Shown piece by piece: positions 5,744-63,519 of a stretch of 64,000 bases of DNA (position 1 is the first letter of the stretch; every line of letters starts with the position of its first letter). Below the pieces are notes generated by a model. That model was given only the letters and a program-made list of their open reading frames with translations. It was not told the origin of the DNA and searched no databases. The DNA is from Tubiluchus corallicola (taxonomy: Eukaryota > Animalia > Priapulida). The stretch covers positions 299,594-363,593 of the forward strand of contig JAQGDQ010002382.1 in NCBI GenBank assembly GCA_030141605.1, read 5' to 3'. The position numbers were made by a program, and so were the translations under genes.

Positions 5744-19569
<13,826 letters not shown>

Positions 19570-29421: not shown

Positions 29422-32400
29422 ATGACAAGTTTAAATAAGGGATGCACGTTGCCTTTATATGTGGTGGATGCTTTCACAAGCCAGGCATTTGCTGGAAATG
29501 CTACTGTTGTATGTCTAGTGTCACACAATCAGGTAAATTAATGATCTGTCATTAACAAACTTTTCGTCTTAATCTGTTGTCAGCTATTTTTATTGCACTG
29601 TTCTTCACTGCAAATAACTTGTGATCCTATAGCACAAAATCAAAGTCAATGTATGTGGCTTAATCGCACTCTTATTTATGTAAAGATACGAGTTTTTAAC
29701 TACTAACTGATAATGTTTCTTGTTATTTATTTATGCGATTAACTCAATTAATCTACTGTGTTACAATAAATAAATCATTATATTATAATATTTAAATCAC
29801 AGGCTTGCATAATAAAAATCACTGGTTTCCTTTTAGAAATATTGAAACAAATTTAACAAGTTAGATGAAAATAAAAGTGTCCATTTGGTCACAGCTGAAA
29901 TCAATTTGTAATCAATTAAACTTATAACATCAGTCATAATAATGTCAGGATAATGGTGACTGTGCCTTTCAGTTATGTTTGTATTTGGATCTATTATAAC
30001 AGTAGGTGTTTTTCATAAAGCGTTAGTATAATTTTAAGTGAGAATTACAATGAGTATCAATGCAGAAAATGCATTTTGTTGTTGTTGTTGTTTCCGTCTC
30101 TACTGAGGCTTTGTAGTTTCTTTTTGCAATTAGAATAGATATTCTGTGTATTATTTGAACTGTACAAAACAGCAGATATGTTATATGTTCAAAATGTATC
30201 CCAAACTGCCCAAAAGCTGTGTTGTTTTTATTAGTTGAATTGTGGTGTAATCTGCATTTCTTGGGTTATATTATTAAATGGCTGTAGACATTGTGATGTA
30301 TATAGTCCTTCGGTTATTCTATTTTAGGTAATCGACGATGCAAAAATGCAAAAAATTGCTTTCGAAATGAACTTGCCGATAACCGGTTTCATTGCACTGC
30401 CAACAGAAAACGATTCGTTCAAGAATTCTTCCCGTTTTGGTCTACGATGGTTTACCCCTGCCTGCGAATTCCAACTGTGCGGTCATTCCACTCTTGCTGC
30501 TGCCACGGTGCTTTTCTCTTGTGTTGGTAAATTTGCTAAGCAGGACAGAAATGTAAATCTAGAAGCTGAAGCTGAGTCAGTTGCTACTAAATCAGCTGAG
30601 TCACACAGTAAATCAGCTAGCTCGGCTGAAACTGAGTCAGTTGCTACTAAATCAGCTGACACTCACAGTAAATCAGCTAACTCGGCTGAAACTGAGTCAG
30701 TTGCTACTAAATCATCTGACACTCACATAGTAAATCAGCTAGCTCGGCTGAAGTAATTTTAATGTTGTAATTGTAATTTTAAACAAACAAGCATACAAAA
30801 ACATACGTAAACTTGATAAAATCCTAAACAAAAAAATCTTTGCTTACGAATAGCCTAAATTGCTGCAGTTCAAGAATATGCCGGTACATGGTTTTTAAGA
30901 ACGTGACAACTGACAACTGTGTGAGTGACAGTACTTTCTCTACCTTACTGCAGATGCTAGCAGTGCAGCACCATCATGTGCTCTGGTTCCGTACAAGTAT
31001 AAAGAAAGAACTAAAGAAAAAAGACTTATTGTATTGAATATTATCGATAATATTGAGTGAAAATAGGGGGCGCTGCAGTTCTGATACTTATACACAACCG
31101 CCACTGTGCTGCATAAACACTAGGCCAAGTTGACCAAAACCTAAATTTTCCTAAGTGAACTTGGTTCAGGAATTGACACTTATGATTACTCCTTCAGTGG
31201 CTTACTTACTGGAGTTCACCATTACGAATGACAGATTGTGATTCTTATGTCCTGCAGCAACAATTTAGTGTTAGTTTGAATAGTTCTATTTGTGAACTGG
31301 TTTAAGTGATTCGACAGCACGCCCCTTTATATGCCATATATCTCTCATAATTTATGTACTCGCGATGTTAAAAAAATCTCCTGGCTTATAATCTGGCAAC
31401 TCTAGCAATGGATTTATTGAAAATATAATTTAAATCCAACCCTTGGCAAGGCTTATCTGGATTACCAACAAATCAATACTAAACACCAAAATGATCCCAT
31501 ACCTGTGGCTAATGTTGCCTATTTGTGCATTTTATTTAATTTTGAATTGACTGCTTTCTCATTCAAAAATTTCTGAAGTTTAGTATCTCTGCCAGCACAC
31601 GTACAATATGACCGCATTGCAACCAGTGATTTCATCATCATCATAAGCCTGTTACATTATTTCTAGACATTGGGCAGGCAAAATTCTAAAATAATAGAAA
31701 TCTGTCCTCAAAACAGGTAAACACAGCAGTAATCTAACAAAAACTGGACACTGCTATGCCAGTGACTTTTTCGCAAGAGCAAAAATCATCACAGCCGGCA
31801 AAAATGTCAGCTACCTCGACTTCCGTCACCGAGCGGCTGGCACGACTAAAGCTGGGTTTCTTATCGGCTAGGTCGACTGTAGAAATAAACCGGCTGGAGC
31901 TGAGCTGAAGCGGTACGGCTCTGGCTTCTATGGCGATCCCATAAGTATTTTTCACGTTGTCTTGAAAATCAGGGAGTTTTTATTTGCCAACCTAATACCA
32001 AACGAATTCACTGTGAATTTATTTGTGTGCTAATGTGTTTACTTCAAATAAGCTTCCATGCAGTTTTGCTTTTTTTTCTTCTATTGCTTGGAGATTGTGT
32101 GCCTTTTTTTGCATTTTAGGACTTAAAGCATTCCGCTGTTTTCAGTTCTCATCATATTTGGCATTTTCTTAGGAGACTGTCAGCTTTCCCTTCTTTTTAT
32201 CTGCACTTTAAAAAATTGGAAAAGAAAAATAGTGCCTGTTAACCATATTCTAAACCATATTCTATTCAAATAATGAAATTACAATTAGGCATTGCAATAT
32301 TTGATTGTATTGCTAATCCACTAATGCTACGATTAGGCTCTAAATATTTGTGAAATTGATAATCATTATGATAGGCAGGTCTGAAATTAAAAGGCAGCTA

Positions 32401-35400
32401 GTGAATATATCTACAGCTATGTAAATTATTACAGGTAACGAATTTACAGAGATTACATTTGATACGCTGAGTGGACCACTTGTTGCCAGAAAAAAAGAGG
32501 ACAATATGATTCTGCTTGATTTTCCTGCTAATCCAACTATTAGTGTTAACAAGGAAAATGTGAAAGAGCTTTTAAAGGTACCTACTCTTTTGAATGAGCT
32601 GTAAAACAAGTTTGCTTGGGTTTTTGTTGTAAGTAATTTTATCATTGAAGCTTTTAGCAGGTAGGTGGTTGACAGTTTGGAAGACATTCTGACACCTTGG
32701 TATATTTATGTATTTTAGGAAATTTCCAGGCTTACTCGTTTTAACTGTGTGTGCTGGCCATGTTTTTCAAATGTATCATATGGGCTGTTTTTTTGGTCAA
32801 TAGCTAAATTGCAGCTTTGCACAGACTTTTTTGAAGGCATATTACTTAGTATTATCTTACTTGTATTACTTAGTATTACGCTTTCTTGCCTGCAATACTC
32901 ATGTAAATAGAAAAGACACATTTTCTAGCTTTATGTAAGTAAAGGGCTTTCTTGCCTGCAATACTCATGTAAATAGAAAAGACACATTTTCTAGCTTTAT
33001 GTAAGTAAAGGGCTTTCTTGCCTGCAATACTCATGTAAATAGAAAAGACACATTTTCTAGCTTTATGTAAGTAAAGGGCTTTCTTGCCTGCAATACTCTT
33101 GTAAATAGAAAAGACACATTTTCTAGCTTTATGTAAGTAAAGGGCTTTCTTGCCTGCAATACTCATGTAAATAGAAAAGACACATTTTCTAGCTTTATGT
33201 AAGTAAAGGGCTTTCTTGCCTTTTATGACAATTTTTTGGTGTTTTAATTAACCCTATTCAGTTTTTGAATTTACCTGAAGAGGGGGACAGCATGAGAGGA
33301 GCATGGAAATTATTCAAAGGTGGGACGGGGTGGGGTGGTTACAGTAATGGTGGCAGTGAAGCGCTTGCTGTTACTTTATTGTTTCTTTTTACTGGCTGTT
33401 ACACACCCGTGCATGCATGCACACGCACGCACACACCCACACACACACACTGTTACATAATATAGTAAAGTATATCATATCACTCTTTTCGGTGATTCTA
33501 GATTGCATAGCACTCCTACAATAGGACTAGTTGAAGTTTAGCAAACAACTATCACAATTACTAACCTGACATTCTGTGCATTAAATTTAGAAATCCACAG
33601 ATTAAAGATACGAGACAATGCCGCTATGATAAAACTAAGGGTGCATTCAGACTAGCGAGTTTTCTGTTGGGAGTTTTTCTCTAACACCAAACTTGCAAGT
33701 GTGAACTGCTTTGCGAGTTACTATCGACAAGTCATTGCACACTTTCAGACAGTTGCTACGAAATGATTTCCTGTTTAGTGTGAACAGTCTCAGCGAGTTA
33801 CTCTTGACACTGCTCCCAGTGAATAGAGGAGGAGTATCAGCTGGTGTTTACTTCATGCTGGAGAATTTTGTTCTTTAGTCTGAACGTGCTTGCGAGTTAC
33901 TTGGCGAGAAAATTTGCTAGTATGAATGCTTCATTACTCTCAAAAGCAGTGCGACAAAATATCAACATTCTTGCAACAGTCAAGTCATCTAAATTCTTCT
34001 TTGTAAAAAGTATTTTGGTCCAAACTTTAATACACTGTAGAATCTTACGTGAATGTTTTTTATAATACAGGTACTTGTTGGAGATTTACCTATTGTTGAT
34101 GTGGAGTATGCTCCTGTTATACAACAAATGATTGTGTGTCTTCAAGATTCTGTGTCCAGGTGTGCATGTTGATAATTTTTTATTTGGTTTGTCGTGTGTC
34201 ATTCGTTTTGCACTTTTCATTTGCTTTCATGTTATTATACATACTATAAAATTGCTGCAAATTGCACAAATCTGCAATTAATCTCTATTTCTATGAAGTG
34301 TGTTTGTGTATGTTTGTTTATTTGTTTGCTATAAAGTCCTGTTTTATTTATTTAACTTAAAATTTGGTCTATTAAGTTGCTAATACATCACACTCCCCAT
34401 TGAATTATGGGATATGTACAGTTATGTGCAGAAATCAATTAACAAAAGCTGAAGTCAGTCTACTTTTTAACTTTTGGCAGGAGTTCTACTTACATGAAAA
34501 AGAATTTAAAATACACTATGTTTCAGTCCATTGTTGGGTTCATTCTCTCATTGTCTCATTTTTCATTCATTAGTCATTGATGTTATTATTGTTGTAAGTA
34601 TAAGGCTTCATGTGTGTGTGTGTGTTTTACCTTCAGGCAAGGACTACTATACAACAGGACGTGCACAGTCAGATCTCTGATTCCGCCAGCGGAGGCGATC
34701 AATACTTGTAATGAACGTAATCTAGAAATAGTGCGCTTTAGAGAGTAGTGATCTTGGAAATTAAAGAATGGACGGATCGGTAGATAGCGAGTATTATTTT
34801 TCATTTAATTGGTTCTTTACATTACGGGAGAAAAGTTCCAATTGTTTATTTTATGTATCAAAGGAAATTAGTGTTCATTTTTACTTCTTAAATAGCGCAC
34901 TACTTTAGGCGTAAGTGTGTTTTACCGGAAGTAGTGCTTTGTCATTGTTAATGTGTCATTGTTCAAAGTCAAGTGAAGCGTTGTTTTCGTGCTTGTGTTT
35001 GTTTCTTTTGGGATTATTTTCAAAATTTCTCGTGGATTTTATACATCTGTGCTCAGCAGCATGCCTAACAAGGTAACTATGACACGGAGAACAAGTGTCG
35101 TGTGTTCAGACTGCCAAGAGATCATGTAGAAAAACAGAAATGGCTAAGTGTTCTTCCCCCACGCGAAGGCTTTGTTGTTGATCCATCGAAATTTTTCATT
35201 TGCGAAAAGCATTGGCCATCGGATACTCAAATAGTCAAAATTCCAGGTGGTCACACCAGCCAGTGGATCCACCCAGTATTTTCAACGTTCCAACATCATG
35301 CTTGCCCACTCCAAAGCCACCACCTCGCCCTCCAAAAACTGAGGACCAGCAGCTGAATTATTTCTTTAAAAAGGATAAAATAACTTATCTCAATGAATTC

Positions 35401-38400
35401 ACTCCTGAGAAAGACCTGCATAAGACGTATCAGAACCTCATTATATCTCGCGCACAAGACAAATTTGTGTGCATGTTCATGGAAGAGGACCACAGTCAAT
35501 GTTATATGTCAATTATTGTTCACAATAAGCCTACCTTGTGTTCCCCTCTTACTCTGTATGCTTTCAAAAACGGGATCAGTGTGCCATTAATTAAAATCCT
35601 CAGTCCGAACAATGGACTGTCCTCTTACTCACAATTTTTCGCGGTTGTGAATTCTGTTGTCAACCACATTCATCATGTTGATGATATTGTCAACAAAGTG
35701 ACAAAGTCTCTTGAACTTGAACTAGCTCAAAATCGAGAACAATCTCCTAGTGTTAATGCTAAAGCCAAGAAGCTCAAATTTCTAACACGACAGCTTCGAC
35801 TATTATGTGATAAGACTTTCACAGTGTCTGATTATTGCTTTGCAATAGAGTCATTTCCCCATTGCAATTACGAACAACTGCGTGACTTTTTAGTGTTACC
35901 CAGCAAAAGAAAGCTGCAGTCAGTTATTTCATCGACAGATATTGACAAGGTGCTAGGTAAAACATTTCAGAAAGTAAAAAGCTCTGAGCAGAAACACTGT
36001 ATGCTATTGGTGGATGAAGTGAAAATATGCCCAACAGTGGCTTAAGGTCCCATGTTGCTTAATTTTGCAGCTAAGGACACTGTGAGCAACAAGCTAATCC
36101 TGTCATTCGTGATAAAACAATAAAGAGACATTTATTTTCAGGGAGATCTTGGAAGCAAGGGCACCGGATATTTTTGCTCTTCCTGCAGCTAACACATCCC
36201 TGATGAAACTGTACGGTGTCCACTTGACGGTTAAAGCTCCAGCCAACTCCGGCTATGACTTTTATTCCCGCAGTTTTTTTCCCTGGATTGGAACGTCTGA
36301 AGATCCAGTTTGTGGTAAACAATTTGCATTGTTTATGTAAGAATGAATGAATATACTATTGATATATATGAATTAATTATAATTATCTTTGCTTTAAAGT
36401 AAAGCTAAACAAAAGAAATTATGTTTATTATTCTTGATGTGCACCATTTTGCTGCGTCTGTGTTTGCCAGTAAGTGGCGTACTCTACTGGCGTTGTTTTG
36501 TAACTTTTCTTTCTCTTTTGAAATGCAGCACAACTAGGGTTGTGGTTTATACAGTAAAATAATTAATATTGGAACATACGATAATTTGAGGCTTCATGCC
36601 ATACAAAAGAGGTAGCTATACGAAGATTGTTAATTAGTTAGTTAGCTATATAAGCTAGTCAGTTAGTCAATCAGTTAGTTTTGGCAAGTTTTCAGTATGG
36701 CATGTTGGGTTGGACAGCTGGGTGTTCTTGGCACTCTTGGCGGCTTTACATTCTTGGAGGCTTGGCGATGGGGTGGAAGACAGAGGCAAGATTTGGAGTG
36801 GAAAACAGGTAGAGTGTCGGCAGTGGGACTGATGTAGGAAGATAGTAGGGTGTGAAGAGAACCACCTAAACTGCAAGAGTGCCCAAATCAATACCAAAAC
36901 ACTAAAATGATCCCATGCGTGTGTCTAACATTGCCTATTTTTGTGTTTAATTTTGAATTGACTGCTTTCTCATTAAAAAATTTTTCAAAGATAGTATCTC
37001 TGCCAGCACACGCACACAGTATGACCACGAATCCGTAGTGCATTCGCCAAATTTCACCCAGTGATTTCGTCATCATCACAAGCCTGTTATGTCAATTGTA
37101 GACATTGGGTAGGCAGAACTCTAAAATAAAAGAAATCTGCCCTCAAGACAGGTAAACACAGCAGTAACCTAGCAAAAAACTAGACACTGCTTTGGCAGTG
37201 GCTTGTTCGCAAGAGCTAAAATCTTCGCAGCCGGCAAAAATGTCGGCTGGCTCCACTCATCTCTGAGTGGCTGGTGCGACTAAAGCTGGGTTTCTTATCG
37301 GCTAGGTCGACTGTAGAAGTGAATTGCCTGGAGTTCAGCTGAAACGACATGGCTCATGCCTCTAGTTTTAAGATGAAGATTAGTTTTAGTTTTGTTCTGT
37401 GTTAGTCTTGCATTTTCTGTCTTAAGTCTGACTGAAAATCACTATGTCACTGAAGGAGTTGCCAGTTTTATGGTTTTTCTGTTGAGGTGGTTTCTAACTT
37501 TGCAGTTTTTATGAGAATAATGAAATTTTGGCCACAAAATATTCTATCCAGTACAGAAGGACTTATGTGGTAATAGTTCCAGTGAATAAAGTATACATTG
37601 TAGGCCTGATTTTCAAAAACATGAAATGTTTTTTTTTCAAAAACATGAAAAGCCTATCTTAATTCATTATATTTGCATGTTTAAAGTTTGCAATGTTTGA
37701 TGCCAGTAATCTCCAACTAATTTCTGACTATGTTAGGGTCGGCTCACACTATATTTGGTTGTTACTGGCAAAAAGTGCTGGGAAAATCAACTTTTCAAGG
37801 TAGGATAATTTGCTGTTTTATGACGTTTGTTATAATTTAACTTATGATGCTTATTCGTTTATGATCTGATTTTGTATGTTTTTCAGTATGTCAGTAGATC
37901 TCAATTTAAATTCTGTGCAAGATTATTACCATGCTGACAAAGAGCGACATAGGTTTGATTTACTTAATGTCGTACAGCACACTGTAATTTAATGTGTGTA
38001 AAGTCCTCGAAAGGTTAAAAAATGAAAATTTCCAGCCATTGTAAATAACTGCGTCTTAGTTTACATAATTTTTCACAAAAAATTACAGAATGCTATAAAA
38101 TATAATTGTTATTTTGAACAATATATATTTTTAGTGGCCAGTCACAAAGTATAATTACTGCCCTGCAATACCATATCACATAGACTTGTGCAGCATATGT
38201 TACCGGAACAGTATCTTGCTTAACCCTTTTACCGCCTCCATGATGTACTATTATGTCTATTTTTTGTATTGGCTTATGCCTATTTGATGTACATATTTAT
38301 CATTAGTATCTAGCGCTCCATTTAAACTCTGGCGAAGTGTATTATCGCTTAGTTTAGTACGTTTAGACAGCTAGCAGGGCCCAGCACAGCTCCAGGAATA

Positions 38401-39391
38401 TGTGTAAACTGAGTTTGACCTTATTTCCTTGGCTACATAGCACATCTGCTACGTACATATATGTCTTCGACTGTGAATTCTGCATCATTTGAAATTTGCT
38501 GTTTTTGCACATTTTTATTATTATTAATAATAATCTTTTGTTCGTATAAAATTTTTTATACAGCAATGTAGTTTTAGTATAAATAATTAATACAATGAAA
38601 AATAATTTTTGTTAGTAATTAAAAAACAAGAGATTTAGAGATTTTAAGACAATTTTCAGCAAAAAGCTTAAAGATTTGATAGTTTTGGAGGTTTTAATGC
38701 ATATGCACACTCTCCCACTTATTTTAGAGATGATGGACCTATATATATATATATATATATATATATGTTCTAAACATTCTTGATAGATATATAAAAATGA
38801 TCTGTAAAGGGATTATTATTCTTGTACACAATTCTACGTGATTTTAAGGCTTTTGGTTTTTGCATGTATTTTACTTTTGATAAATGTATACCAAAACAAA
38901 TATATTTTTAATTGTGACTTGCACAAGTTGATTTTCGGGCTGAATTTAGGGGCTGAAGCTGTTTTACTTGCATGACACTATAATTTTGCTTTGGAGGTTC
39001 ATTTATTGATCTAAATTCAGTTTCATGTGCAGTTTCATATCACCATATTGCCTCATTTGCAAATAAATATAAAACTTAAACAAGTAAGTAAATATATAGG
39101 CCTAACAAATTTTCGTGAATGAATGTAATGATTGATTGATTGAATGAATGAATGAATAGGTGGGTGCATGATTGATTTTTATTTGGCTTGTTGAAATCAT
39201 ATCTTTTTTTCTTATGAACAATATCAAAATAAAGTTGCAAAGTTGTTATTTTGTCATGTGCTTTGTGCGTTTTTGTAGCTCGTCAGTGCTCAAAAAGAGG
39301 AGGAGATGTCTACGTGAATGTACGAGAAGACAAGAGAGTCGAGATTGGAGGCAAGTCTGTAGTCGTTATAGAAGGAAAGATCTATTTATAG
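29422..39391 (+). CDS. PBLD: PhzF/PBLD-family protein (phenazine biosynthesis-like, DAP-epimerase fold), copy 1, 296 aa
   Basis: Exons 29422-29532, 30328-30526, 32435-32577, 34071-34159, 36142-36314, 37737-37799 and 39279-39391 total 891 nt, in frame. Motifs VVDAFT..FAGN, LRWFTP..LCGH, FDTLSG, LDFP, DFYSR.FFPW..EDPVCGSAH, ARQCSKRGG. Confidence 0.95.
30563..30751. repeat. ~60-bp tandem repeat x3 in PBLD copy 1 intron 2
   Basis: The GCTGAAACTGAGTCAGTTGCTACTAAATCAGCTGAC..CAGTAAATCAGCTA unit is repeated; copies 2 and 3 have a single unit. Confidence 0.9.
31473..31930. repeat. Dispersed ~450-bp repeat present twice per PBLD gene
   Basis: Homologous to ~36888-37365, 46693-47155, 51840-52320 and 61080-61540 (shared AAATGATCCCAT..GGCTAGGTCGACTGTAGAA). 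Confidence 0.8.
32880..33220. repeat. 66-bp minisatellite x5 (copy 1 only)
   Basis: CTTTCTTGCCTGCAATACTCATGTAAATAGAAAAGACACATTTTCTAGCTTTATGTAAGTAAAGGG at 32881, 32947, 33013, 33079 and 33145. A single unit is present at ~48107 and ~62494. Confidence 0.97.
33639..33933. mobile_element. PIF/Harbinger-type MITE (also 48610-48904 and 62999-63293)
   Basis: TAA|GGGTGCATTCAGACTAGCGAGTTTTCT ... AGAAAATTTGCTAGTATGAATGCTTCA|TTA: imperfect TIRs with TWA flanks. Confidence 0.7.
34638..36044 (+). mobile_element. Truncated THAP-domain / P-element-like transposase
   Basis: Starts CAAGG exactly where copy 1 departs from copy 2. THAP-like FRLP..KWL..FFICEKHW..DPPSIF (35061-35290, frameshifted, N-terminal Cys pair missing), then YEQLRDFLVLPSKRKLQ..CMLLVDEVKI (P-transposase core start), cut at 36045. 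Confidence 0.85.
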
Positions 39392-42300
39392 TCTAAATCA
39401 TGGAATCGTACTTTATCTGATTGCTTTATCACAGTGTTGCCATTCTGGTTGATAAAGATTATTGTTTTGGAAGCTAAAAATTATAGTATTTTCCACCATA
39501 TTATCGCATCTTCATGCAAAATTCAAAATTTCTGTGTATTTGCAGCAAATTGTTATTATTATTGTATAATTATGCATTTAATAAGTAACCATAACACCAA
39601 AAAGTACTGTAGAAAACTGGCTATTTGTTTTACAGATTTTATTTTCCACTCATTGTAAAAAAGGTGAAACTGCAAGAGAAACAAGAAAAAAGAACATGAA
39701 ACAAAAGTAAATCCATAACAGACATGCAAAAAATAAATAAAGGAACAAGCATTAGCAAATTAACAAGCATACTGAAGCAGAATTTACTAATAAATAAACT
39801 TCCTGACATATCACAAATCAGCATGCACGCCTACACAAAAACACGCATATGCATATGCAGTTGCAAAAAAAAAACAATAATTAGGCATCACCGTAACACT
39901 ATTAGAAACTACCAAGCTGACAAATAAATTACTGCAAAGTTCTGCATAAAAATGAAGAAACATAAGAACTTACAAACGTTTGAGGATCTGTAGAAAAAAC
40001 TTTAAGCCAGTCTTCAGAAATTAACAGAGACATACTGATTCTACAACGGTGGCATACTGACTTCACAACTACTATACCACTAAAAACACAATTTTTTCCT
40101 ATTCTAAGGCTATCTAACCACTCATACAAGAGCGGCCAAGCATGTCAAACAAACTCTACAGGTAATGCAAAATGAATAATGACACTCTAGAATCAAAACA
40201 CCTGGCTTCACTGTACCCAAGCTGGCCTGAGAGATAACAAGTACCATTAGCAAGTGTAAAATTAAGTTTATCAAAACACAGTAGAATGTCGCTACCAGTC
40301 TCTTTTGAAATTACTGCTTTTTTCTGAAAACTTTGACCACTAATTGCGACCAGCATGGTTTGGATTACAACGAAGTCAAAATTTGTTTACTTTCCCCTGG
40401 TAAGCAGTAATGTTTTTTGTCTAAATTATCGTATAATTATCTGTTATCGTACAGTCTGTTTTTTTTGTATGGTATGAAGCATCAAATTATCGTATATTCG
40501 AATAATTATCATATAAAAAGCAACCCTGTTTATCATTTTCATGTCAGGTAAGTGCTAGAAAATAGAACGAAGGTAGAACTGTAGCAGTGCGTAGTTAATA
40601 TAAAAAAGAGTTCCTTTAAGGGAAAATAGAATGGTGTATAATGTTCTCTTATGATCAGTGATTATTTTATCATTGTTGTGTTTTTAATTAGAAATGCTCC
40701 TTTTAAGGGAAAATTAAAATAAGCTTTTAGCATGTAGTGAACTGAGTGGAATTCTGAAATAGTGTTGTTCCCTATAATAATTTTACAATTTTAGTCAAAG
40801 GATTATGTGCAGTTTTAATAGAAATATTATTTTATGTTCTATGCACTAAGTGGGATGGACGTTTTTGTTGTTGTTGATGTATACTATCTTTTCTCTATAT
40901 ACCAGCTAGACTACACCACTATTGTTATGCATTTGGGAAGTTTTACTTATGGACCAAAGTTGACCTTACCTTTTTTGCCCATTTCTGAAGTTAATTATTG
41001 TAGGTTTTATATTTTAGAATTTAAATGTGCCACATTGTTGCTTTATTAGGGTAGAGGATTGAGTGATATTTTATCAATTGTGCCAAATAAATTAACTTGT
41101 TCTCGGTTAAAGCGGCTTAGGACTATAATAATGGCGGTTATATGCGCCATGCAATTTCTATATTTGAATGAAAATACAGCATTATTGTGTAAATTGTGCC
41201 AAATAAGTTAATATGTTTCTGCTTAAAGTGGATTATCAAGTTACTGCTGTGTTATTTGATTACAGTAATTTTTGTGGCTTTATAAATCGACCAAGTCCAC
41301 ATTAAGATGAAATTATATTTTTTGTAAACAGGATGAAACAGGATAGGAAATAAGTTAACAGGTTTCTGCTTAAAGCAGATTACGAAGTTACAGATGCGCT
41401 AAGCTATACTTTTTGATTACAGTTATATTTATAGCTGTATAAATCGTGGATTGAATAATTAAAATGAAATTATTTTTGTTTGTTTAATGAGATTATTCTT
41501 GTTTATTTAAACTTTAACTATGTTTCTGTGTTACAATAAATGAACTCAAAGCAGAAAATGCAGTTCCTTATATGTTTAAATTCCTGGCAAGAATAAGGGG
41601 GCATTTTATAGTACAATTCTAATGTTGTATATGTTAGATATCATGAAGCAATATAAATTTATCAGAATAGCTCATTGCCACACTTAAGATTTCTGGAAGT
41701 CAGTGATCAAAAGTTATATTACTGCATATTTTATTTAATAAAAACTTTAATTTGGAAACAATATGCAGCCAATAATATGTTAGAATCTTGCTTGTTTCTT
41801 TTGTCACATCAAACTCGCATGTACACAATCTCTAAGAACACTTAAATTGTTGCATGAGGTCTGTCTCAACAGTAAGAACAGCTACGTGTGAGAGTTTTCT
41901 ATACAATAGCTTACAATAACTGTACGATAAAATGATTTACTATTACCAGTTGACAGAGTACCAAAATGTGTAGAAATGAAGAAGTGAACTCATAAGATAT
42001 CATACTAAGTGCAGGTGATGCTACTCATTGTATAATAAATAAAAATTGGAAAAAGTCAAAAAGTTGATAAATCTTGTTGCTGTCTCAGTTGATGTGACTT
42101 ATCAAATGCACTTTCACTGTTTCCTTCATGCACTTTACTTAATCACAGCCTCTTTTTGTTGTTAGCTGATGTTATTTTGCGTAATTTGTTGTGATTTTTG
42201 TTATAAAGTTATGCAATTTGTTTTGTTTTTTTACAGAAGAAGTGGTAGTTTGTTAACATTCTACTTTATTTAATCTCATTTTAGGTGTCAGTTTATGTGC

Positions 42301-42591
42301 GTAATACATATTTATGGTAAAGTTTTTTCGTGTTAGGCTGCTTTAAAAAAATTTCTTATTGACAAATAAGAGAAATGCTCACCTACTATGCAAGCAATTA
42401 TTTAAGTCTTGCTAAAATTAATAAATGATCATGGCAGCAATTTATCGTTAAAAAAATTAACATTGTTAATACTAAATTACTAGCAAAATGAGCTTAACCA
42501 AGCCTAGCCCTAGGTGTCTGATATGAGAGTCGTCGTAAATACGCTGTCAACGCGTTGCCAAACGATCGGTTTTCCTGTTGAAGATATCCCG

Positions 42592-43320: not shown

Positions 43321-43609
43321 TGCTGGAAATTTAGCTACAATAATAATAGTCATAAATGGTTGATTAGCATCAATGCTGATTACGTTACTTGTGTCTTGCG
43401 CGGTAACATTCCTTTGTGCCTATCTAACCAGATAGAGTTAACACCGAGGAAACAACGAAACAACATGTGCTTACTGGAGAACCGCAACTGCCGCGACATG
43501 ACATAGAGGAAGTTGAGGAACTGCAAGATGTAAAATGTACAACAGTCGTCGTATAGAAAAATATAATCTTAAAGTGAACAATACAAAGACCAAAGAATAC
43601 GTTATACCC

Positions 43610-48200: not shown

Positions 48201-51200
48201 GTGTTTTAATTAATCCTATTCAGTTTTCGAATTTGCCTGAAGAGGGGAGACAGCATGAGAGGAACATGGAAACTATTCAAAGGTGGGATGGGGGTGGGGG
48301 GGTGGGGGGTTACAGTAATGGTGGCAGTGAAGCACTTGCTGTTACTTTAATGTTTCTTTTTACTGGCTGTTACACACACGTGCATGCACGCACGCGCACA
48401 CACACACCCACACACACGCACTGTTACATAATATAGTAAAATATATCATATCACTCTTTTCGGTGATTCTAGATTGCATAGCACTCCTACAATAGGACTA
48501 GTTGAAGTTTAGCAAACAACTATCACAATTACTAACCTGACATTCTGTGCATTAAATTTAGAAATCCACAGATTAAAGATACGAGACAATGCCGCTATGA
48601 TAAAACTAAGGGTGCATTCAGACTAGCGAGTTTTCTGTTGGGAGTTTTTCTCTAACACCAAACTTGCAAGTGTGAACTGCTTTGCGAGTTACTATCGACA
48701 AGTCATTGCACACTTTCAGACAGTTGCTACGAAATGATTTCCTGTTTAGTGTGAACAGTCTCAGCGAGTTACTCTTGACACGGCTCCCAGTGAATAGAGG
48801 AGGAGTATCAGCTGGTGCTTACTTCATGTTGGAGAATTTTGTTCTTTAGTCTGAACGTGCTTGCGAGTTACTTGGCGAGAAAATTTGTTAGTATGAATGC
48901 TTCATTACTCTCAAAAGCAGTGCGACAAAATATCAACATTCTTGCAACAGTCAAGTCATCTAAATTCTTCTTTGTAAAAAGTATTTTGGTCCGAACTTTA
49001 ATACACTGTAGAATCTTATGTGAATGTTTTTTATAATACAGGTACTTGTTGGAGATTTACCTATTGTTGATGTGGAGTATGCTCCTGTTATACAACAAAT
49101 GATTGTGTGTCTTCAAGATTCTGTGTCCAGGTGTGCATGTTGATAATTTTTTATTTGGTTTGTCGTGTGTCATTCGTTTTGCACTTTTCATTAGCTTTCA
49201 TGTTATTATACATACTATAAAATTGCTGCAAATTGTACAAATCTGCAATTAATCTCTATTTCTATGAAGTGTGTTTGTGTATGTTTGTTTATTTGTTTGC
49301 TATAAAGTCCTGTTTTACTTATTTAACTTCAAATTTGGTCTATTAAGTTGCTAATACATCACACTCCCCATTGAATTATGGGATATGTACAGTTATGTGT
49401 AGAAATCAATTAACAAAAGCTGAAGACAGTCTACTTTTTAACTTTTGGCAGGAGCTCTACTTACATGAAAAAGAATTTAAAATACACTATGTTTCAGTCC
49501 ATTGTTGGGTTCAAATTCTGATTGGATGAAAATTTTTCATTGTCTCATTCTTCATTCATTAGTCATTGATGTTATTATTGTTGTAAGTATAAGGCTTCAT
49601 GTGTGTGTGTGTTTTACCTTCAGGTAAAAGGAAAAAGTTATGTGAGTAGCAAGTACATGTTTGCTGCATGTCTGGTGCTCTTAGCATTGTGCTAAAATGT
49701 GTTATTTTTAGTCTACTTCTTTTGTAATCTTTGCTGTGCTGCTTGTGGTTGTATTGTACAGTGTCCAGAAAGGTAATCCCCCACTTTGCCAGTTATCTTT
49801 TTGCCAGTCTACTTTTTCACCAGTCTACTTTTTTGCTAGTCTACTTTTTTGCCAGTCTACTTTTTCGCTAGTCTATTTTTTGCCAGTTTTCTTTTTCGCC
49901 ATTCCACTTTTTCACCTCTCCACTTTTTCGCCAGTCTTCTTTTTTGCTAGTCTATTTTTTGCCAGTTTTATTTTTCGCCATTCCACTTTTTCGCCAGTCT
50001 TCTTTTTTGCCAGTTTTCTTTTTCGCCAGTCTTCTTTTTCGCCAGTCTTCTTTTTCGCCAGTCTATTTTTTGCCAGTCTACTTTTTCGCCAGTCTACTTT
50101 TTCGCCAGTTTTCTTTTTCGCCGGTCCACTTTTTTGCCAGTCTTCTTTTTTGCCAGTTTTCTTTTTCGCCAGTCTTCTTTTTCGCCAGTCTTCTTTTTCG
50201 CCAGTCTATTTTTTGCCAGTCTACTTTTTCGCCAGTCTACTTTTTCGCCAGTTTTCTTTTTCGCCGGTCCACTTTTTTGCCGGTCCACTTTTTCCCCGGT
50301 CCACTTTTTCCCCGGTCCACTTTTTCGCCAGTCTTCTTTTTGCCGGTTTTCTTTTTCGCCGATTTTCTTTTTCGCCAGTCTTCTTTTTCGCCAGTCTACT
50401 TTTTCGCCATTCTACTTTTTTGCCAGTTTTCTTTTTTGCCAGTCTTCTTTTTTGCCGGTCCACTTTTTTGCCAGTCCACTTCGTTAGGTTAATAATGATT
50501 AACAATGAAGACTTGACGCTTTAAATGCTTTGTGAACGGAAGATATAAATCCTACAGAGCGTGCCATATATCACTGGATTTGCACTGAAATGATGAATCT
50601 GATGCACTGTGCCAAAATCGCGAGTCCAATCGAAAATTTAACATTCAGAATCTGCTGTTATTTTCATTCTGAGATGTTTAGTTTCCGAGATATGCACCTT
50701 TTTGGAATAACTTAAAAATATACATAGCTAGTCCACCAAATTTAGTATGCTTGTAGTTAGGGTAGAGGGCCACCTCAGGTTGTGACCCTGTGACCCTCCT
50801 GAGTTATAACCCAAAAATCATCAAAAGAGGTCTATTTTTGAGAAATAGTTACTCCTGCAGGAAGCGCCATCTATTCAAACGAAAAAAAACATGAAAGTAC
50901 TATGCCTTGGCTATCAGTAACTTGCTTAGCTTTGTCGAACACTGAACCATTGCCCTTTTACAATGCCACAAACATGCCATTGTCTGTATAATGCTTAATA
51001 TACTTAACATATACGACAGTTGCAAAGATTAGTATCTTCAATACTAATGAATAAAAGTATCATCACCATGTTCGAATGCATATACATTGTACGTTCTTTG
51101 TCACTCAGGTTAATAGTGAGTGGGGGCAACCGGCAACCAGTTTTTTAAATGACTATCAATTCATTTAGTGAGCAGGTCCCATGTTGCTTAATTTTGCAGC

Positions 51201-54200
51201 TAATGACACACTGTGAGCAACAAGCTAATTCTGTCATTCATGATGAAGCAATAAAGATACATTTATTTTCAGGGAGATGTTGGAGGCAAGAGCACCGGAT
51301 AGTTTTGCTCTTCCTGCAGCTAACACGTCCCAGATGAAACTGCACGGTGTCCACTTGACGGTTAAAGCTCCGGCCGACTCCGGCTACGACTTTTATTCCC
51401 GCTGTTTTTTTCCCTGGGATGGACTGCTTGAAGATCCAGTTTGTGGTAAACAATGTGCATTGTTTATGTAAGAATGAATGGACATACTATTTAAATATAT
51501 GAATTAATTATAATTATCTTTGCTTTAAAGTAAAGCTAAACAAAAGAAATTATGTTTATTATTCAACCGTCAGTTGCTACCACACCAGCTGACTCACACA
51601 GTAAATTAGCTAGCTGAGTAAAAAGTTAAAAAGAGCTTCTGGGGAATGTTCTCGATGTGCTCCATTTTGCAGTGTCTATGTTTGCCAGTAAGTGGCGTAT
51701 CTACTGGTGTTCTTTTGTAACCGGGGCGAAAGACACAGGCAAGGTTTGGAGTGGAAAACAGATAGAGTATCGGCAGTGGGACTGATACAGGAAAGTTGTA
51801 GGGTGTGAAGAGAACCACCTAAACTGCAAGGGTGCCCAAATCAATACCAAAACACTAAAATGATCCCACACGTGTGTCTAACGTTGCATATTTGTGTGTT
51901 TAATTTTGAATTGACTGCTTTCTCATTAAAAAATTTTTCAAAGTTAGTATCTCTGCCAGCACACGCACACAGTATGACCACGAATCCATACTGCATTTGC
52001 CATATTTCACCCAGTGATTTCGTCATCATCACATGCCCGTTATGTCAGTTGTAGACATTGCGTAGGCAGAACTCTAAAATAAAAGAAATCTACCCTCAAG
52101 ACAGGTAAACACAGCAGTAATCCAGCAAAAACTAGACACTGCTATGGCAGTGGCTTGTTCGCAAGAGCTAAAATCTTCGCAGCTGGCAAAAATGTCGGCT
52201 GGCTCCACTTCCATCTCTGAGCAGCTGGCGCGACTAAAGCTGCGTTTCTTATCGGCTAGGTCGACTGTAGAAGTGAATTGCCTGGAGTTCAGCTGAAACG
52301 ACATGGCTCTGGCCTCTAGTTTTAAGATGAAGATTAGTTTTAGTTTTGTTCTGTTTTAGTCTTACATTTTCTGTCTTAAGTCTGACTGAAAATCACTATG
52401 TCACTGAAGGAGTTGCCAGTTTTATGGTTTTTCTGTTCTAGTGCAGAAGGACTAATGTGGTAATAGTTCCAGTGAATAAAGTATACATTGTAGGCCTGAT
52501 TTTCAAAAACATGAAATGTTTTTTTCAAAAACATGAAAAGCCTATCTTAATTCATTATGTTTGCATGTTTAAAGTTTGCAATGTTTGATGCCAGTAATCT
52601 TCAACTAATTTCTGACTATGTTAGGGTCGGCTCACACTGTATTTGGTTGTTACTGGCAAAAAGTGCTGGGAAAATCAACTTTTCAAGGTAGGATAATTTG
52701 GTGCTTTATGACGTTTATTGTAATTTAACTTATGATGCTTATTCGTTTATGATCTGATTTTGTGTGTTTTTCAGTATGTCAGTAGATCTCAATTTAAATT
52801 CTGTGCAAGATTATTACCATGCTGACAAAGAGCGATATAGGTTCGATTTACTTAATATTGTGCAGCACACTGTAATTCAATGTGTGTAAAGTCCTCGAAA
52901 GGTTAAAAAATGAAAATTTCCAGCCATTGTAAATAACTGTATCTTAATTGACACAATTTTTCACAAAAAATTACAGAATGCTAGAAAATATAATTGTTAT
53001 TTTGAACAATATATATTTTTAGTGGCCAGTCACAAAGTATAATTACTGCCCTGCAATACCATATCACATAGACTTGTGCAGCATATGTTACCGGAACAGT
53101 ATCTTGCTTAACCCTTTTACCGCCTCCATGATGTACTATTATGTCTATTTTTTGAACTGGCTTATGCCTATTTGACATACATATTTATCATTAATATCTA
53201 GCACTCCATTTAAACTCTGGCGAAGTGTATTATCGCTTAGTCTAGTACGTTTAGACAGCTAGCAGGGCCCAGCACAGCTCCAGGAATATGTGTGAACTGA
53301 GTTTGACCTTATTTCCTTGGCTACATAGCACATCTGCTATGTACATATATGTCTTCGACTGTGAGTTCTGCATCATTTGAAATTTGCTGTTTTTGCACAT
53401 TTGTATTATTATTAATAATAATCTTTTATTCGTATAAAAATTTTTATACAGCAATGTAGTTTTAGTATAAATAATTAATACAATGAAAAATAATTTTTGT
53501 TAGTAATTAAAAAACAAGAGATTTAGAGATTTTAAGACAATTTTCAGCAAAAAGTTTAAAGATTTGATAGTTTTGTAGGTTTTAATGCATATGCACACTC
53601 TCTTACTTATTTTCCAGACGATGGACCTATATATATATGTTCTAAACATTCTTGGTAGATATATAAAAATGATCTGTAAAGGGATTATTATTCTTGTACA
53701 CAATTCTACGTGATTTTAGGGCTTTTGGTTTTTGCATGTATTTTACTTTTGATAAATGTATACCAAAACAAATATGTTATTAATTGTGACTTGCACAAGT
53801 TGATTTTCGGGCTGAATTTAGGTGCTGAAGCTGTTTCACTTGCATGACATTATAATTTTGCTTTGGAGGTTCATTTATTGATCTAAATTCAGTTTCATGT
53901 GCAGTTTCATATCACCATATTGCCTCATTTGCAAATAAATATAAAACATAAACAAGTAAGTAAATATATAGGCCTAATAAATTTCCGTGAATGAATGTAA
54001 TGATTGATTGAATGAATGAATGAATGAATAGGTGGGTGCATCATTGATTTTTATTTCGCTTGTTGAAATCATCTCTTTGTTTCTTATGAACAATACCAAA
54101 GTAAAGTTGCAAAGTTGTTATTTTGTCATGTGCTTTGTGCGTTTTTGTAGCTCGTCAGTGCTCAAAAAGAGGAGGAGATGTCTACGTGAATGTACGAGAA

Positions 54201-54263
54201 GACAAAAGAGTCGAGATTGGAGGCAAGTCTGTAGTCATTATAGAAGGAAAGATCCATTTGTAG
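45215..54263 (+). CDS. PBLD: PhzF/PBLD-family protein, copy 2, 296 aa
   Basis: Exons 45215-45325, 46127-46325, 47659-47801, 49042-49130, 51273-51445, 52625-52687 and 54151-54263, same lengths as copy 1. GNAAAVC, EMNLSETCF, LCGHATL and EDPVCGSAH are intact. Confidence 0.96.
49781..50482. repeat. ~16-17-bp minisatellite (GCCAGTCTACTTTTTTC variants) in PBLD copy 2 intron 4
   Basis: About 40 variant units. It produces the spurious Phe/Ser-rich ORFs 49736-50524. Confidence 0.95.
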
Positions 54264-59601: not shown

Positions 59602-62600
59602 ATGACAAGTTTAAATAAGGGATGCACTTTGCCTTTATATGTGGTGGATGCTTTCACAAGCCAGGCATTTGCTGGAAATGCTGCTGCTGTATGTCTAGTG
59701 TCACACAATCAGGTAAATTAATGATGATCTGTCATTAACAAACTTTTCGTCTTAATTTGTTTTCAGCTATTTTTATTGCACTGTTCTTCACTGCAAATAA
59801 CTTGTGGTCCTGTAGCACAAACTCAGTCAATGTATGTGTCTTAATCGCACTCTTATTTATGTAAAGATATGAGTTTTTAACTACTAACTGATAATGTTTT
59901 TGTTATTTATTTATGTGATTAACTCAATGAATTAACTGTGTTACAATAAATAAATCATTATATTATAATATTTAAATCGCAGGCTTGCATAATAAAAATC
60001 ACTGGTTTATTTTTAGAAATATTGAAACAAATTTAACAAGTTAGTTGAAAACAAAAGTGTCCATTTAGTCACAGCTGAAATCAATTTGTAATCAATTAAA
60101 CTTATAACATCAGTCATAATAATGTCAGGATAATGGTGACTGTGCCTTTAAGTTATGTTTGTATTTGGATCTATTATAATAGTAGGTGTTTTTCATGAAG
60201 ATTTAGTATAATTTTAAGTGACAATTACAATGAGTATCAATGCAGAAAATGCATTTTGTTGTTGTTGTTGTTGTTGTTTCCGTTTCTACGGAGGCTTTGT
60301 AGTTTCTTTCTGCAATTCGAATAGATATTCTGAGTATTATTTGAACTGTACAAAACAGGAGATATGTTATATGTTCAAAATCTATTCCAAACAGTCCGAA
60401 GGCTGTGTTGTTTTTATTAGTTGAATTGTGGTGTAATCTGCATTTCTTGGGTTATATTATTAAATGGCTGTAGACATTGTGATGTATATAGTCATTCGGT
60501 TATTCTATTTTAGGTAATCGACGATGCAAAAATGCAAAAAATTGCTTTCGAAATGAACTTGTCGGAAACCTGTTTCATTGCACTGCCAACAGAAAACGAT
60601 TCGTTCAAGAATTCTTCCCGGTTTGGCCTGCGATGGTTTACCCCTGCCTGTGAAATCCAACTGTGTGGTCATGCCACTCTTGCTGCTGCCACGGTGCTTT
60701 TCTCTTGTGTTGGTAAGTTTGCTAAGCAGGACAGAAATGTAAATCTAGAAGCTGAACCTGAGTCAGTGCTACTACATCAGCTGACACTCACAGTAAATCA
60801 GCCAGCTGGAGTTCACCATTAAGAATGACAGATTTTGATTCTTATGTCCTGCAGCAACAATTTAGCGTTAGTTTGAATAGTTTTATTTGTGAACTGGCTT
60901 AAGTGATTCGACAGCACACCCCTTTATATGCCATATATCTCTCTATATCTCTCATATTTTATGTACTCACAATGTTAAAAAAAATCTCCTGGCTTATAAT
61001 CTGGCAACTCTAGCAATGGATTTATTGCAAATATAATTTAAATCCAACCCTTGGCAAGGCTTATCTGGATTACCAACAAATCAATACTAAAATACCAAAA
61101 TGATCCAATACGTGTGGCTAATGTTGCCTATTTGTGCATTTTATTTAATTTTGAATTGACTGCTTTCTCATTCAAATATTTCTGAAGTTTAGTATCTCTG
61201 CCAGCACACGTACAATATGACCGCATTGCGACCAGTGATTTCATCATCATCATAAGCCCGTTATGTCAATTGTAGACATTGGGCAGGCAGAACTCTAAAA
61301 TAAAAGAAATCTGCCCTCAAAACAGGTAAACACAGCAGTAATCTAGCAAAAAAACTGGACACTGCTATGCCAGTGACTTGTTCGCAAGAGCAAAAATCTT
61401 CACAGCTGGCAAAAATGTCAGCTACCTCGACTTCCGTCACCGAGCGGCTGGCACGACTAAAGCTGGGTTTCTTATCTGCTAGGTCGCCTGTAGAAATAAA
61501 CCGACTGGAGCTGAGCTGAAGCGGTATGGCTCTGGCTTCTATGTCGATCCCTTAAGTATTTTTCACGTTGTCTTGAAAATCAGGGAGTTTTTATTTGCCA
61601 ACCTAATACCAAACGAATTCACTGTGAATTTATTTGTGTGCTAATGCGTTTACTTCAAATAAGCTTCCATGCAGTTTTGCTTTTTTTCTTCTATTGTTTT
61701 TTTAGATTGTGTGCCTTTTTTGCATTTTAGGACTTAAAGCATTCCGCTGTTTTCAGTTCTCATCATATTTGGCATTTTCTTAGGAGACTGTCAGCTTTCC
61801 CTTCTTTTCATCTGCACTTTAAAAAATTGGAAAAGGAAAATAGTGCCTGTTAACCATATTCTAAACCATATTCTATTCCAATAATGAAATTACAATTAGG
61901 CATTGCAATATTTGATTGTATTGCTAATCCACTAATGCTACGATTAGGCTCTAAATATTTGTGAAATTGATAATCATTATGATAGGGGGGTCTGAAATTA
62001 AAAGGCAGCTAGTGAATATATCTACAGCTATGTAAATTATTACAGGTAACGAATTTACAGAGATTACATTTGATACGCTAAGTGGACCACTTGTTGCCAG
62101 AAAAAAAGAGGACAATTTTATTCTGCTAGATTTTCCTGCTAATCCAACTATTAGTGTTAACAAGGAAAATGTTAAAGATCTTTTAAAGGTACCTACTGTT
62201 TTGAATGACCTGTAAAACAAGTTTGCCTGGGTTTTTGTTGTAAGTAATTTTATCATTGAAGCTTTTAGCAGGTAGGTGGTTGACAGTTTGGAAGACATTC
62301 TGACGCCTTGGTATATTTATGTATTTTAGGAAATTTCCGGCGTTACTTGTTTTAACTGTGTGTGCTGGCCATGTTTTTCAAATGTATCATATGGGCTGTT
62401 TTTTTTTGGCCAATAGCTAAATTGCATCTTTGCACAGACTTTTTTGAAGGCATATTACTTAGTATTATCTTACTTGTATTACTTAGTATTACGCTTTCTT
62501 GCCTGCAATACTCATGTAAATAGAAAAGACACATTTTCTAGCTTTATGTAAGTAAAGGGCTTTCTTGCCTTTTATGACAATTTTTTGGTGTTTTAATTAA

Positions 62601-63519
62601 TCCTATTCAGTTTTCGAATTTGCCTGAAGAGGGGAGACAGCATGAGAGGAACATGGAAACTATTCAAAGGTGGGACGGGGGTGGGGGGGGGTGGGGGGTT
62701 ACAGTAATGGTGGCAGTGAAGCACTTGCTGTTACTTTAATGTTTCTTTTTACTGGCTGTTACACACACGTGCATGCACGCACGCGCACACACACACCCAC
62801 ACACACGCACTGTTACATAATATAGTAAAATATATCATATCACTCTTTTCGGTGATTCTAGATTGCATAGCACTCCTACAATAGGACTAGTTGAAGTTTA
62901 GCAAACAACTATCACAATTACTAACCTGACATTCTGTGCATTAAATTTAGAAATCCACAGATTAAAGATACGAGACAATGCCGCTATGATAAAACTAAGG
63001 GTGCATTCAGACTAGCGAGTTTTCTGTTGGGAGTTTTTCTCTAACACCAAACTTGCAAGTGTGAACTGCTTTGCGAGTTACTATCGACAAGTCATTGCAC
63101 ACTTTCAGACAGTTGCTACGAAATGATTTCCTGTTTAGTGTGAACAGTCTCAGCGAGTTACTCTTGACACGGCTCCCAGTGAATAGAGGAGGAGTATCAG
63201 CTGGTGCTTACTTCATGTTGGAGAATTTTGTTCTTTAGTCTGAACGTGCTTGCGAGTTACTTGGCGAGAAAATTTGTTAGTATGAATGCTTCATTACTCT
63301 CAAAAGCAGTGCGACAAAATATCAACATTCTTGCAACAGTCAAGTCATCTAAATTCTTCTTTGTAAAAAGTATTTTGGTCCGAACTTTAATACACTGTAG
63401 AATCTTATGTGAATGTTTTTTATAATACAGGTACTTGTTGGAGATTTACCTATTGTTGATGTGGAGTATGCTCCTGTTATACAACAAATGATTGTGTGTC
63501 TTCAAGATTCTGTGTCCAG
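59602..63519 (+). CDS. PBLD: PhzF/PBLD-family protein, copy 3 (exons 1-4; continues beyond the window)
   Basis: Exons 59602-59712, 60514-60712, 62046-62188 and 63431-63519. By eye these are identical to copy 2. Confidence 0.93.

What the first reader, a model, noticed from the sequence alone, without database searches (positions are those of the whole stretch)
29422..63519. Tandemly amplified animal PhzF-family genes with a two-cysteine racemase-like active site
Seen: LCGH (Cys at 30478 and 46277) plus EDPVCGSAH (Cys at 36311 and 51442). Established: human PBLD and bacterial PhzF have Thr here (EDPxTG), whereas same-fold PLP-independent racemases/epimerases (DapF CGN/CGT, proline racemase MCGH/PCGT) use a Cys pair at these two positions. 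From memory, the Arabidopsis PhzF-like DAAR1 is an amino-acid racemase. Inference: an expanding family of animal PLP-independent racemases/isomerases, possibly for D-amino acids or specialised/defence metabolites. The intron-rich structure argues against recent horizontal transfer.
Basis: partly seen in the sequence, partly recalled or inferred. Interest (0 to 1): 0.8.

Follow-up and report, generated by a model that had tools for sequence, protein, structure and literature searches.

The report
Tandem animal PBLD genes, racemase-type cysteines
This animal has three neighbouring copies of the PBLD gene; the two complete copies carry a pair of active-site cysteines like those of cofactor-free amino-acid racemases and likely act as racemases or epimerases, and the same cysteine recurs in many animal lineages, including zebrafish, so the idea can be tested directly.

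Summary
Three tandem PBLD/PhzF-family genes lie on the + strand. Two are complete (seven exons, 296 aa); the third is cut by the window end and its coding part is identical to copy 2. All four Cys codons are at the stated places and align with the catalytic pair of E. coli DapF.

The Cys is not special to this animal: 48 of 466 homologous domains have it (Thr 411, Ser 1), including zebrafish, five birds, amphioxus, Aplysia, a tardigrade, apple paralogs and bacteria. It arose repeatedly, often in tandem copies.

New here: copy 1 has lost the PhzF catalytic Glu but kept both Cys. Its differences from copy 2 cluster in pocket residues (7 of 21 at 23 published pocket positions, p=4e-4), while the rest is under purifying selection.

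Best reading (0.45): two-cysteine racemases/epimerases diverging in substrate. Main rival (0.33): Cys is a tolerated Thr substitute and copy 1's pocket is relaxed. No activity, substrate or expression was shown. Shared intron positions argue against horizontal transfer.

The parts
29422..39391 (+). PBLD copy 1, seven coding exons, 296 aa; Cys88/Cys238, catalytic Glu55 replaced by Ile, remodelled pocket
45215..54263 (+). PBLD copy 2, seven coding exons, 296 aa; Glu55, Cys88, Cys238; close to family consensus
59602..63519 (+). PBLD copy 3, exons 1-4 (rest beyond the window); coding part identical to copy 2
30478..30480 (+). Cys88 of copy 1 (LCGH; aligns with DapF Cys73, PhzF Ala72)
36311..36313 (+). 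Cys238 of copy 1 (EDPVC; aligns with DapF Cys217, PhzF Thr211)
30379..30381 (+). Ile55 (ATA) of copy 1, in place of the Glu equivalent to PhzF catalytic Glu45; two nucleotide changes from copy 2
46178..46180 (+). Glu55 of copy 2, retained
46277..46279 (+). Cys88 of copy 2
51442..51444 (+). Cys238 of copy 2
60664..60666 (+). Cys88 of copy 3
44432..49611 (.). Tract of near-total identity between copies 2 and 3 (1 mismatch and one 2-nt indel after 44432), against 104 mismatches in the upstream 4.9 kb; likely recent gene conversion or unequal crossover
41493..42592 (.). Upstream element shared at about 70% identity with 22952-24223, and present before copy 3 (55918-56770); possibly the old promoter or non-coding first exon of the repeat unit (inferred)

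Best explanation
The genes are vertically inherited animal PBLD paralogs of the DapF/PhzF fold whose proteins likely work as cofactor-free two-cysteine racemases or epimerases of a small amino acid or similar carboxylic acid, with copy 1 likely shifting to a new substrate. Shown: gene structure, the Cys pair and its alignment with DapF Cys73/Cys217, the retained clamp residues (Asn26, Gly89, His90, Asp235, Gly239, Ser240), loss of Glu55 in copy 1, and clustering of copy 1/2 differences in the pocket. Inferred: the substrate carboxylate is held by the backbone amides at the two helix N-termini; one Cys thiolate removes the alpha-proton and the other Cys reprotonates the opposite face. Copies 2 and 3 keep Glu55 and may keep Glu-type chemistry too. 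Copy 1 cannot use the PhzF Glu shuttle and has more hydrophobic lining at several positions (Glu55Ile, Ile85Phe, Asp230Ile), so it would rely on the Cys pair and may take a bulkier, non-polar side chain. Gene conversion likely homogenises the copies outside the pocket exons.
For: HHalign puts LCGH on DapF QCGN and EDPVCG on ETQACG (E 0.035, Thr-consensus profile, E 3.9e-5, probability 70%). A model of an Aplysia Cys/Cys, Glu-less homologue (proxy, pLDDT 96) matches PhzF-family chains first, then hydroxyproline epimerases, DapF and proline racemase. DapF uses two Cys as acid/base (PMC13728532, passages). Cys-Cys versus Cys-Thr separates racemase/epimerase from dehydratase, and one Thr-to-Cys change gives epimerase activity (PMC3958920, passages). 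Site 2 is Thr 411, Cys 48, Asn 6, Ser 1 of 466 domains: Thr to Cys needs two base changes, mostly through Ser, which is almost absent. There are 17 state changes on a 65-row tree, and one Cys clade is rejected (p-AU 0.0002). Among acid-less domains 7 of 16 have Cys238 against 38 of 436 others, and 6 of 16 have Pro54, as copy 1 does, against 9 of 448. Copy 1/2: 7 of 21 differences fall at 23 pocket/door positions named in PMC4586147 (expected 1.6, p=3.8e-4); pN there is 0.20 against gene-wide pS 0.079 (p=0.013). Outside the motif windows pN is 0.019, below pS (p=1.6e-4); there are 5 double-hit codons against 1.06 expected. End branches: copy 1 0.083, copy 2 0.
Against: No assay, substrate or expression data. 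Yeast YHI9 has Cys at site 2 with Ala at site 1, so site-2 Cys occurs without a partner. Five bird PBLDs have it with copy number unknown. Pocket pN does not exceed the local synonymous rate of exons 2 and 5 (0.117, p=0.14), nor gene-wide pS in any of 7 anchor-window widths (p 0.07-0.42). Door positions 230-233 vary across the family, and 2 of 18 control pairs reach 25% against 33% here. Eight of 16 acid-less domains have Thr, not Cys, and the independent-pairs test had only 3-5 pairs and was not significant. The survey pools redundant searches, two of them with Cys-bearing profiles, and the tree rows were chosen to include Cys forms (24 of 65). DAAR1's own residues were not seen.
Confidence: 0.45

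Rival explanations
1. Cys238 is a tolerated substitute for Thr. Copies 2 and 3 do whatever ordinary PBLD does (probably a Glu-based isomerisation), the array is a dosage amplification, and copy 1 has a relaxed pocket, becoming a non-catalytic binder or an early pseudogene.
For: Cys recurs in birds, fish, plants and bacteria, and in YHI9 without the first Cys. Copies 2 and 3 are identical in coding sequence. Copy 1 lost the essential PhzF Glu45 equivalent (PMC5524880 and PMC4586147, passages) and departs from consensus at 14 of 92 conserved columns against 9 for copy 2. Pocket pN is not above local pS.
Against: Ser, the mildest and nearest substitute, occurs in 1 of 466 domains. Copy 1 keeps an open frame, all splice sites and both Cys; 0 differences fall in 57 conserved columns outside the motif windows (p=0.009 among all 21 differences, 0.076 among the 10 outside). 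Its Pro54/Gly57/Ser91 changes echo those of other Glu-less paralogs.
Confidence: 0.33
2. The Cys pair serves other chemistry of the same fold, such as double-bond isomerisation, dehydration, or a redox or electrophile-sensitive switch, on a lineage-specific metabolite rather than racemisation.
For: The fold hosts dehydratases and PhzF-type isomerases as well as epimerases. DapF's two Cys can form an inactivating disulfide (PMC13728532). Pocket remodelling says nothing about reaction type.
Against: In the proline-racemase branch Cys-Cys marks racemases/epimerases and Cys-Thr marks dehydratases (PMC3958920). An isoleucine epimerase, cited to Strauch 2015, is listed among DapF-like enzymes (PMC12039745).
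Confidence: 0.17
3. Copy 3 is an uncollapsed haplotype or assembly duplication of copy 2, so only two genes exist. This changes the copy count, not the Cys finding.
For: 0 of 180 codons differ, and 1 mismatch in about 3,370 aligned intron bases.
Against: The upstream 4.9 kb differ at 104 positions with 16 indels, with a sharp switch to identity near 44,400. The spacers after copies 1 and 2 differ. A contig joint from the copy-2 3' flank (54576) into the next unit (54718) appears in runs X1, X2 and X4, two samples, though as a 141-nt-shorter form.
Confidence: 0.15

Closest known systems
Vertebrate PBLD (human cluster P0139; PF02567)
   Same: 44-49% identity of copy 2 to vertebrate PBLDs, same motifs, shared intron positions
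   Different: Human is Glu/Cys/Thr; here Glu/Cys/Cys (copies 2 and 3 share Glu55 and Cys88) and Ile/Cys/Cys (copy 1). Zebrafish and five bird PBLDs share the Cys/Cys state.
Pseudomonas PhzF (DHHA isomerase, 1t6k)
   Same: Fold, clamp residues Gly73/His74/Asp208/Gly212/Ser213, and Glu45 in copies 2 and 3
   Different: PhzF has Ala72 and Thr211 where these have Cys; copy 1 lacks Glu45; no phenazine genes were seen in the window.
DapF, proline racemase, hydroxyproline epimerase (Cys-Cys type)
   Same: Two Cys at the aligned positions; same fold (proxy model)
   Different: About 12-16% identity; PF01678 and the proline racemase family were not hit by the four full-length homologues scanned; substrate unknown.
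Arabidopsis DAAR1 (isoleucine racemase/epimerase)
   Same: A eukaryotic cofactor-free amino-acid epimerase; its PhzF-family membership is recalled, not from a call; many plant homologues are Cys/Cys
   Different: Its sequence and original paper were not available; only citing passages were seen. Plant rows lie apart from the animal rows in the tree.
Aplysia californica and Hypsibius exemplaris duplicated PBLDs (uncharacterised)
   Same: Cys/Cys with Glu lost, in duplicated copies; Pro54 in Aplysia
   Different: Separate branches in the tree (Aplysia inside a gastropod clade at 99; the tardigrade near the window rows at weak support 86); no function known.

Membership tests
PhzC/PhzF family, PBLD orthologous group | PF02567 match over the protein | tested here: met
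   6 of 8 exon pieces hit, 4 above the cut-off; spliced models E<1e-108 against the family profile
PhzC/PhzF family, PBLD orthologous group | Conserved GN, CGH and EDP..GS motifs | tested here: met
PhzC/PhzF family, PBLD orthologous group | Metazoan intron positions (vertical descent) | tested here: met
   Bird isoforms skip exactly the 21-aa exon after EDPVT; a 10-aa vertebrate skip ends at the window's intron 3 position; Acropora reads through at EDPVTG
PhzF proper (DHHA isomerase) | Catalytic Glu45 | tested here: inconclusive
   Present in copies 2 and 3, replaced by Ile in copy 1
PhzF proper (DHHA isomerase) | Ala72 and Thr211 at the two helix N-termini | tested here: not met
   Both are Cys
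Cofactor-independent two-Cys racemases/epimerases, DapF-like | Two Cys at positions aligned with DapF Cys73 and Cys217 | tested here: met
Cofactor-independent two-Cys racemases/epimerases, DapF-like | DapF-like two-domain fold | tested here: met
   On a proxy homologue (Aplysia P0249), not the window protein:
Cofactor-independent two-Cys racemases/epimerases, DapF-like | Thiols facing each other across the substrate alpha carbon | not testable with these tools
   The fold tool returned no coordinates
Cofactor-independent two-Cys racemases/epimerases, DapF-like | PLP-independent L/D interconversion that needs both Cys | not testable with these tools
   Needs an assay
DapF or proline racemase sequence families | Pfam match to those families | tested here: not met
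   No such hit in 8 exon pieces or 4 full-length homologues; PDB profile hits to them only E 0.07-0.19
DAAR1-type plant racemases | Same active-site residues as DAAR1 | not tested
   DAAR1 sequence and paper not available
Secreted L/D peptide isomerases | Signal peptide for the secretory pathway | tested here: not met
   By eye only: the N-terminus runs into the first beta strand within about 10 residues, with no hydrophobic leader

The most novel reading that the evidence does not exclude
Animals have repeatedly converted PBLD, a gene with no established reaction, into PLP-independent two-cysteine racemases or epimerases: a Thr-to-Cys switch after tandem duplication, sometimes followed by loss of the ancestral Glu. 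This locus catches the second step under way, and zebrafish, Aplysia and amphioxus carry testable examples of an unrecognised animal route to D-amino acids or other inverted metabolites.
Probability: 0.4. Interest if true: 0.78.

Novelty: new variant of a known kind. Interest (0 to 1): 0.52.

Why it matters
Known animal amino-acid racemases are mostly PLP-dependent (recalled). A recent paper lists few substrates for cofactor-independent enzymes (PMC11602996), and another notes that many DapF-like enzymes lack mammalian homologues (PMC12039745). If Cys/Cys PBLDs are racemases, animals have an overlooked, repeatedly evolved source of D-amino acids. By the Cys-Thr versus Cys-Cys rule, the substrate of a Cys/Cys copy would also point to the reaction of human Cys/Thr PBLD. 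Copies 1 and 2 are 93% identical and differ mostly in the pocket, so they form a natural pair for mapping specificity. If the idea fails, this is an ordinary tandem duplication.

Tried and rejected
No whole genome is held, so total copy number, the rest of copy 3 and any Thr-type paralog are unknown.

Expression: no RNA holder listed; a run guessed to be RNA laid 0 contigs. Neither is evidence.

No further PBLD exons upstream of 29,300 by DNA alignment or motif scan.

First exon boundaries were off by 1-3 bases and were fixed.

The motif windows (11 of 21, p=1e-5; none of 20 control pairs above 21%) were drawn after the differences had been seen. They were replaced by seven widths (p 0.04 to 8e-5) and a published residue list; His155 and Ala183 there are mapped tentatively.

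The AU test of invertebrate Cys rows alone did not finish. The independent-pairs test of Glu loss with Cys was underpowered. The host group could not be fixed: the nearest row is Helobdella, without strong support.

Horizontal transfer rejected. A single ancient Cys paralog rejected, although gene conversion within lineages could hide old paralogy. Secreted peptide isomerase rejected: no leader.

Literature: ten searches listed no paper on Cys/Cys animal PBLDs or on racemase activity of PBLD; subscription journals are mostly missing. Strauch 2015 and the PhzF structure paper PMC534541 were not held; Visser 2012 was not looked up; no supplements were read. Strauch 2015 may already discuss the Cys pair. 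Earlier scan notes: nothing.

Full report
Observation. A six-frame motif scan and self-alignment show three tandem units spaced 15.8 and 14.4 kb. Spliced by coordinates, copies 1 (29422-39391) and 2 (45215-54263) each have seven coding exons with GT-AG introns and encode 296 aa without internal stops. Copy 3 (59602-63519) shows exons 1-4 before the window ends. Cys88 lies at 30478, 46277 and 60664, Cys238 at 36311 and 51442. Pfam PF02567 hits 6 of 8 exon pieces, 4 above the cut-off. The upstream neighbour is a calcineurin A gene (read by eye). No whole genome is held.

Origin. Copy 2 is 44-49% identical to vertebrate PBLDs and up to 49% to coral and sponge PBLDs. Bird isoforms lack exactly the 21-residue exon after EDPVT, vertebrate isoforms lack a 10-residue exon ending where the window's intron 3 falls, and Acropora models read through at EDPVTG. 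The host group is unresolved; the nearest tree row is the leech Helobdella, with weak support.

The cysteine pair. Profile alignment to E. coli DapF places LCGH on QCGN and EDPVCG on ETQACG (E 0.035; with the 85-row, Thr-consensus profile E 3.9e-5). True PhzF has Ala and Thr at these sites (Ala72 and Thr211 in PMC4586147, passages). E. coli YddE and 4dun are Cys/Thr, 1s7j is Cys/Cys, and yeast YHI9 is Ala/Cys. A model of the Aplysia Cys/Cys homologue, used as a proxy, has pLDDT 96 and matches PhzF-family chains first, then hydroxyproline epimerases, DapF and proline racemase. DapF uses two Cys as acid and base (PMC13728532, passages); PhzF uses Glu45 instead (PMC5958127 and PMC5524880, passages). 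Proline-racemase-like enzymes divide into Cys-Cys racemases/epimerases and Cys-Thr dehydratases, and one Thr-to-Cys change gives epimerase activity (PMC3958920, passages, citing Visser 2012, not read). DAAR1 is linked to N-malonyl-D-allo-isoleucine (bioRxiv 2022.12.07.519424, passages), and an isoleucine epimerase is listed among DapF-like enzymes (PMC12039745, passages). Its PhzF-family membership is recalled and its residues were not seen. PMC7432710 gave only a reference entry, PMC8142540 had no PhzF passage, and PMC2459174 (passages) confirmed Cys/Thr variation in proline racemases.

How common the Cys is. With a query carrying no site-2 information, 12 motif hits had Cys and 99 Thr among 120 proteins. 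Among 120 mostly vertebrate hits, 5 proteins had Cys; among 150 representatives at 50% identity, 6 did. Pooled over 461 proteins, site 2 is Thr 411, Cys 48, Asn 6 and Ser 1 of 466 domains; this pool is redundant and partly Cys-biased. Named Cys carriers include zebrafish and other teleosts, five birds, Branchiostoma, Aplysia, Patella vulgata, Trichonephila, Hypsibius, apple and a fungus; 5 of 24 named invertebrate genera have one. All bird members listed from three large clusters that showed the motif had Thr. On a 65-row tree built without the two trait columns (24 Cys rows, chosen by me) the state changes 17 times, and a single Cys clade is rejected (p-AU 0.0002). Several Cys forms sit in duplicated loci: three Aplysia proteins share one scaffold length, two Cys/Cys without Glu and one canonical; Hypsibius, Labeo and Cirrhinus models fuse neighbouring copies; apple paralogs within one 90% cluster differ Thr/Cys. 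Bird copy numbers are unknown. The near absence of Ser, the usual mutational step between Thr and Cys, suggests two favoured states rather than drift (inference).

Divergence between the copies. Copies 1 and 2 differ at 21 residues and 16 synonymous codons (dN/dS 0.47). Nearly all change is on copy 1 (end branches 0.083 and 0). Copy 1 has Ser54Pro, Glu55Ile, Cys57Gly, Ile85Phe, Ala91Ser and Cys225Ser, and differs at 230, 232 and 233. Of 23 pocket and door positions named for PhzF, 7 differ (expected 1.6, p=3.8e-4), while both Cys and all clamp residues are unchanged. pN at these positions is 0.20, above gene-wide pS 0.079 (p=0.013) but not above local pS 0.117 (p=0.14); 2 of 18 control pairs reach 25% against 33% here. 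Outside the motif windows pN is 0.019, below pS (p=1.6e-4), and 5 codons carry two changes against 1.06 expected. Among 16 homologous domains without an acid at 55, Pro54 (6), Gly57 (2), Gly/Ser91 (5) and Cys238 (7) are enriched. These rows are not independent, the independent-pairs test was underpowered, and 8 of the 16 have Thr. Copy 1 looks maintained as a folded protein with a changed pocket; positive selection is likely but relaxation limited to the pocket is not excluded.

Array dynamics. Copies 2 and 3 are identical at 180 of 180 codons and nearly identical in introns, but 2% apart upstream, with a sharp boundary near 44,400. A shared upstream element is only about 70% identical between copy 1 and the others, while gene bodies are about 95% identical. 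This fits an older duplication homogenised by gene conversion (inference). Contigs of two samples join the copy-2 3' flank to a following unit, which weakly supports a real third copy.

Verdict. The genes are PBLD family members. They probably work like two-cysteine racemases or epimerases (0.45), with copy 1 shifting substrate; they are not members of the DapF or proline racemase sequence families. Rivals: tolerated Cys with a relaxed copy 1 (0.33) and other chemistry (0.17). Ten literature searches listed nothing on Cys/Cys animal PBLDs; Strauch 2015 was not held and may bear on this. New variant of a known kind; interest 0.52.

Noticed in passing
window 5744-19569 (+): Calcineurin A catalytic subunit gene (3' part), recognised by eye from its translation; lies upstream of the PBLD array.
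   Followed up: partly
window 13714-13813 and 16543-16631 (+): Two similar exons of matching phase, each encoding a calmodulin-binding-like helix of calcineurin A (the role is recalled; no Pfam hit); likely alternative exons. A further exon at 14106-14201 resembles the next exon but is one base out of frame with 13714-13813, giving an early stop; a truncated isoform or a homopolymer error.
   Followed up: partly
window 34640-36045 (+), intron 4 of copy 1: Insertion absent from copy 2, with a 287-aa stop-free frame. It resembles a THAP/P-element transposase fragment by eye; no Pfam hit.
   Followed up: partly
window 25181-26320 (+), interrupted at 24532-25095 (-): LINE fragment with a reverse transcriptase domain (RVT_1, E 5.5e-19) and a second LINE-like fragment inserted on the opposite strand.
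   Followed up: partly
window 49788-50481: 16-bp tandem repeat (about 44 copies) in intron 4 of copy 2; also a 66-bp repeat expanded in copy 1 intron 3 (32880-33221) and a 60-bp repeat after exon 2 of copy 1.
   Followed up: no
P0429, P0412, P0426 (Danio); P0011, P0185, P0201, P0221, P0446 (birds): Vertebrate PBLDs with the Cys/Cys site; zebrafish offers a tractable test system.
   Followed up: partly
P0249, P0391, P0394 (Aplysia californica): Three PBLDs with the same scaffold length, two Cys/Cys without the Glu and one canonical; Aplysia is known for D-amino-acid biology (recalled).
   Followed up: partly
P0296, P0317, P0329, P0339, P0361, P0363: Six unnamed homologues have Asn at site 2 (EDPVNG), a third state.
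   Followed up: no
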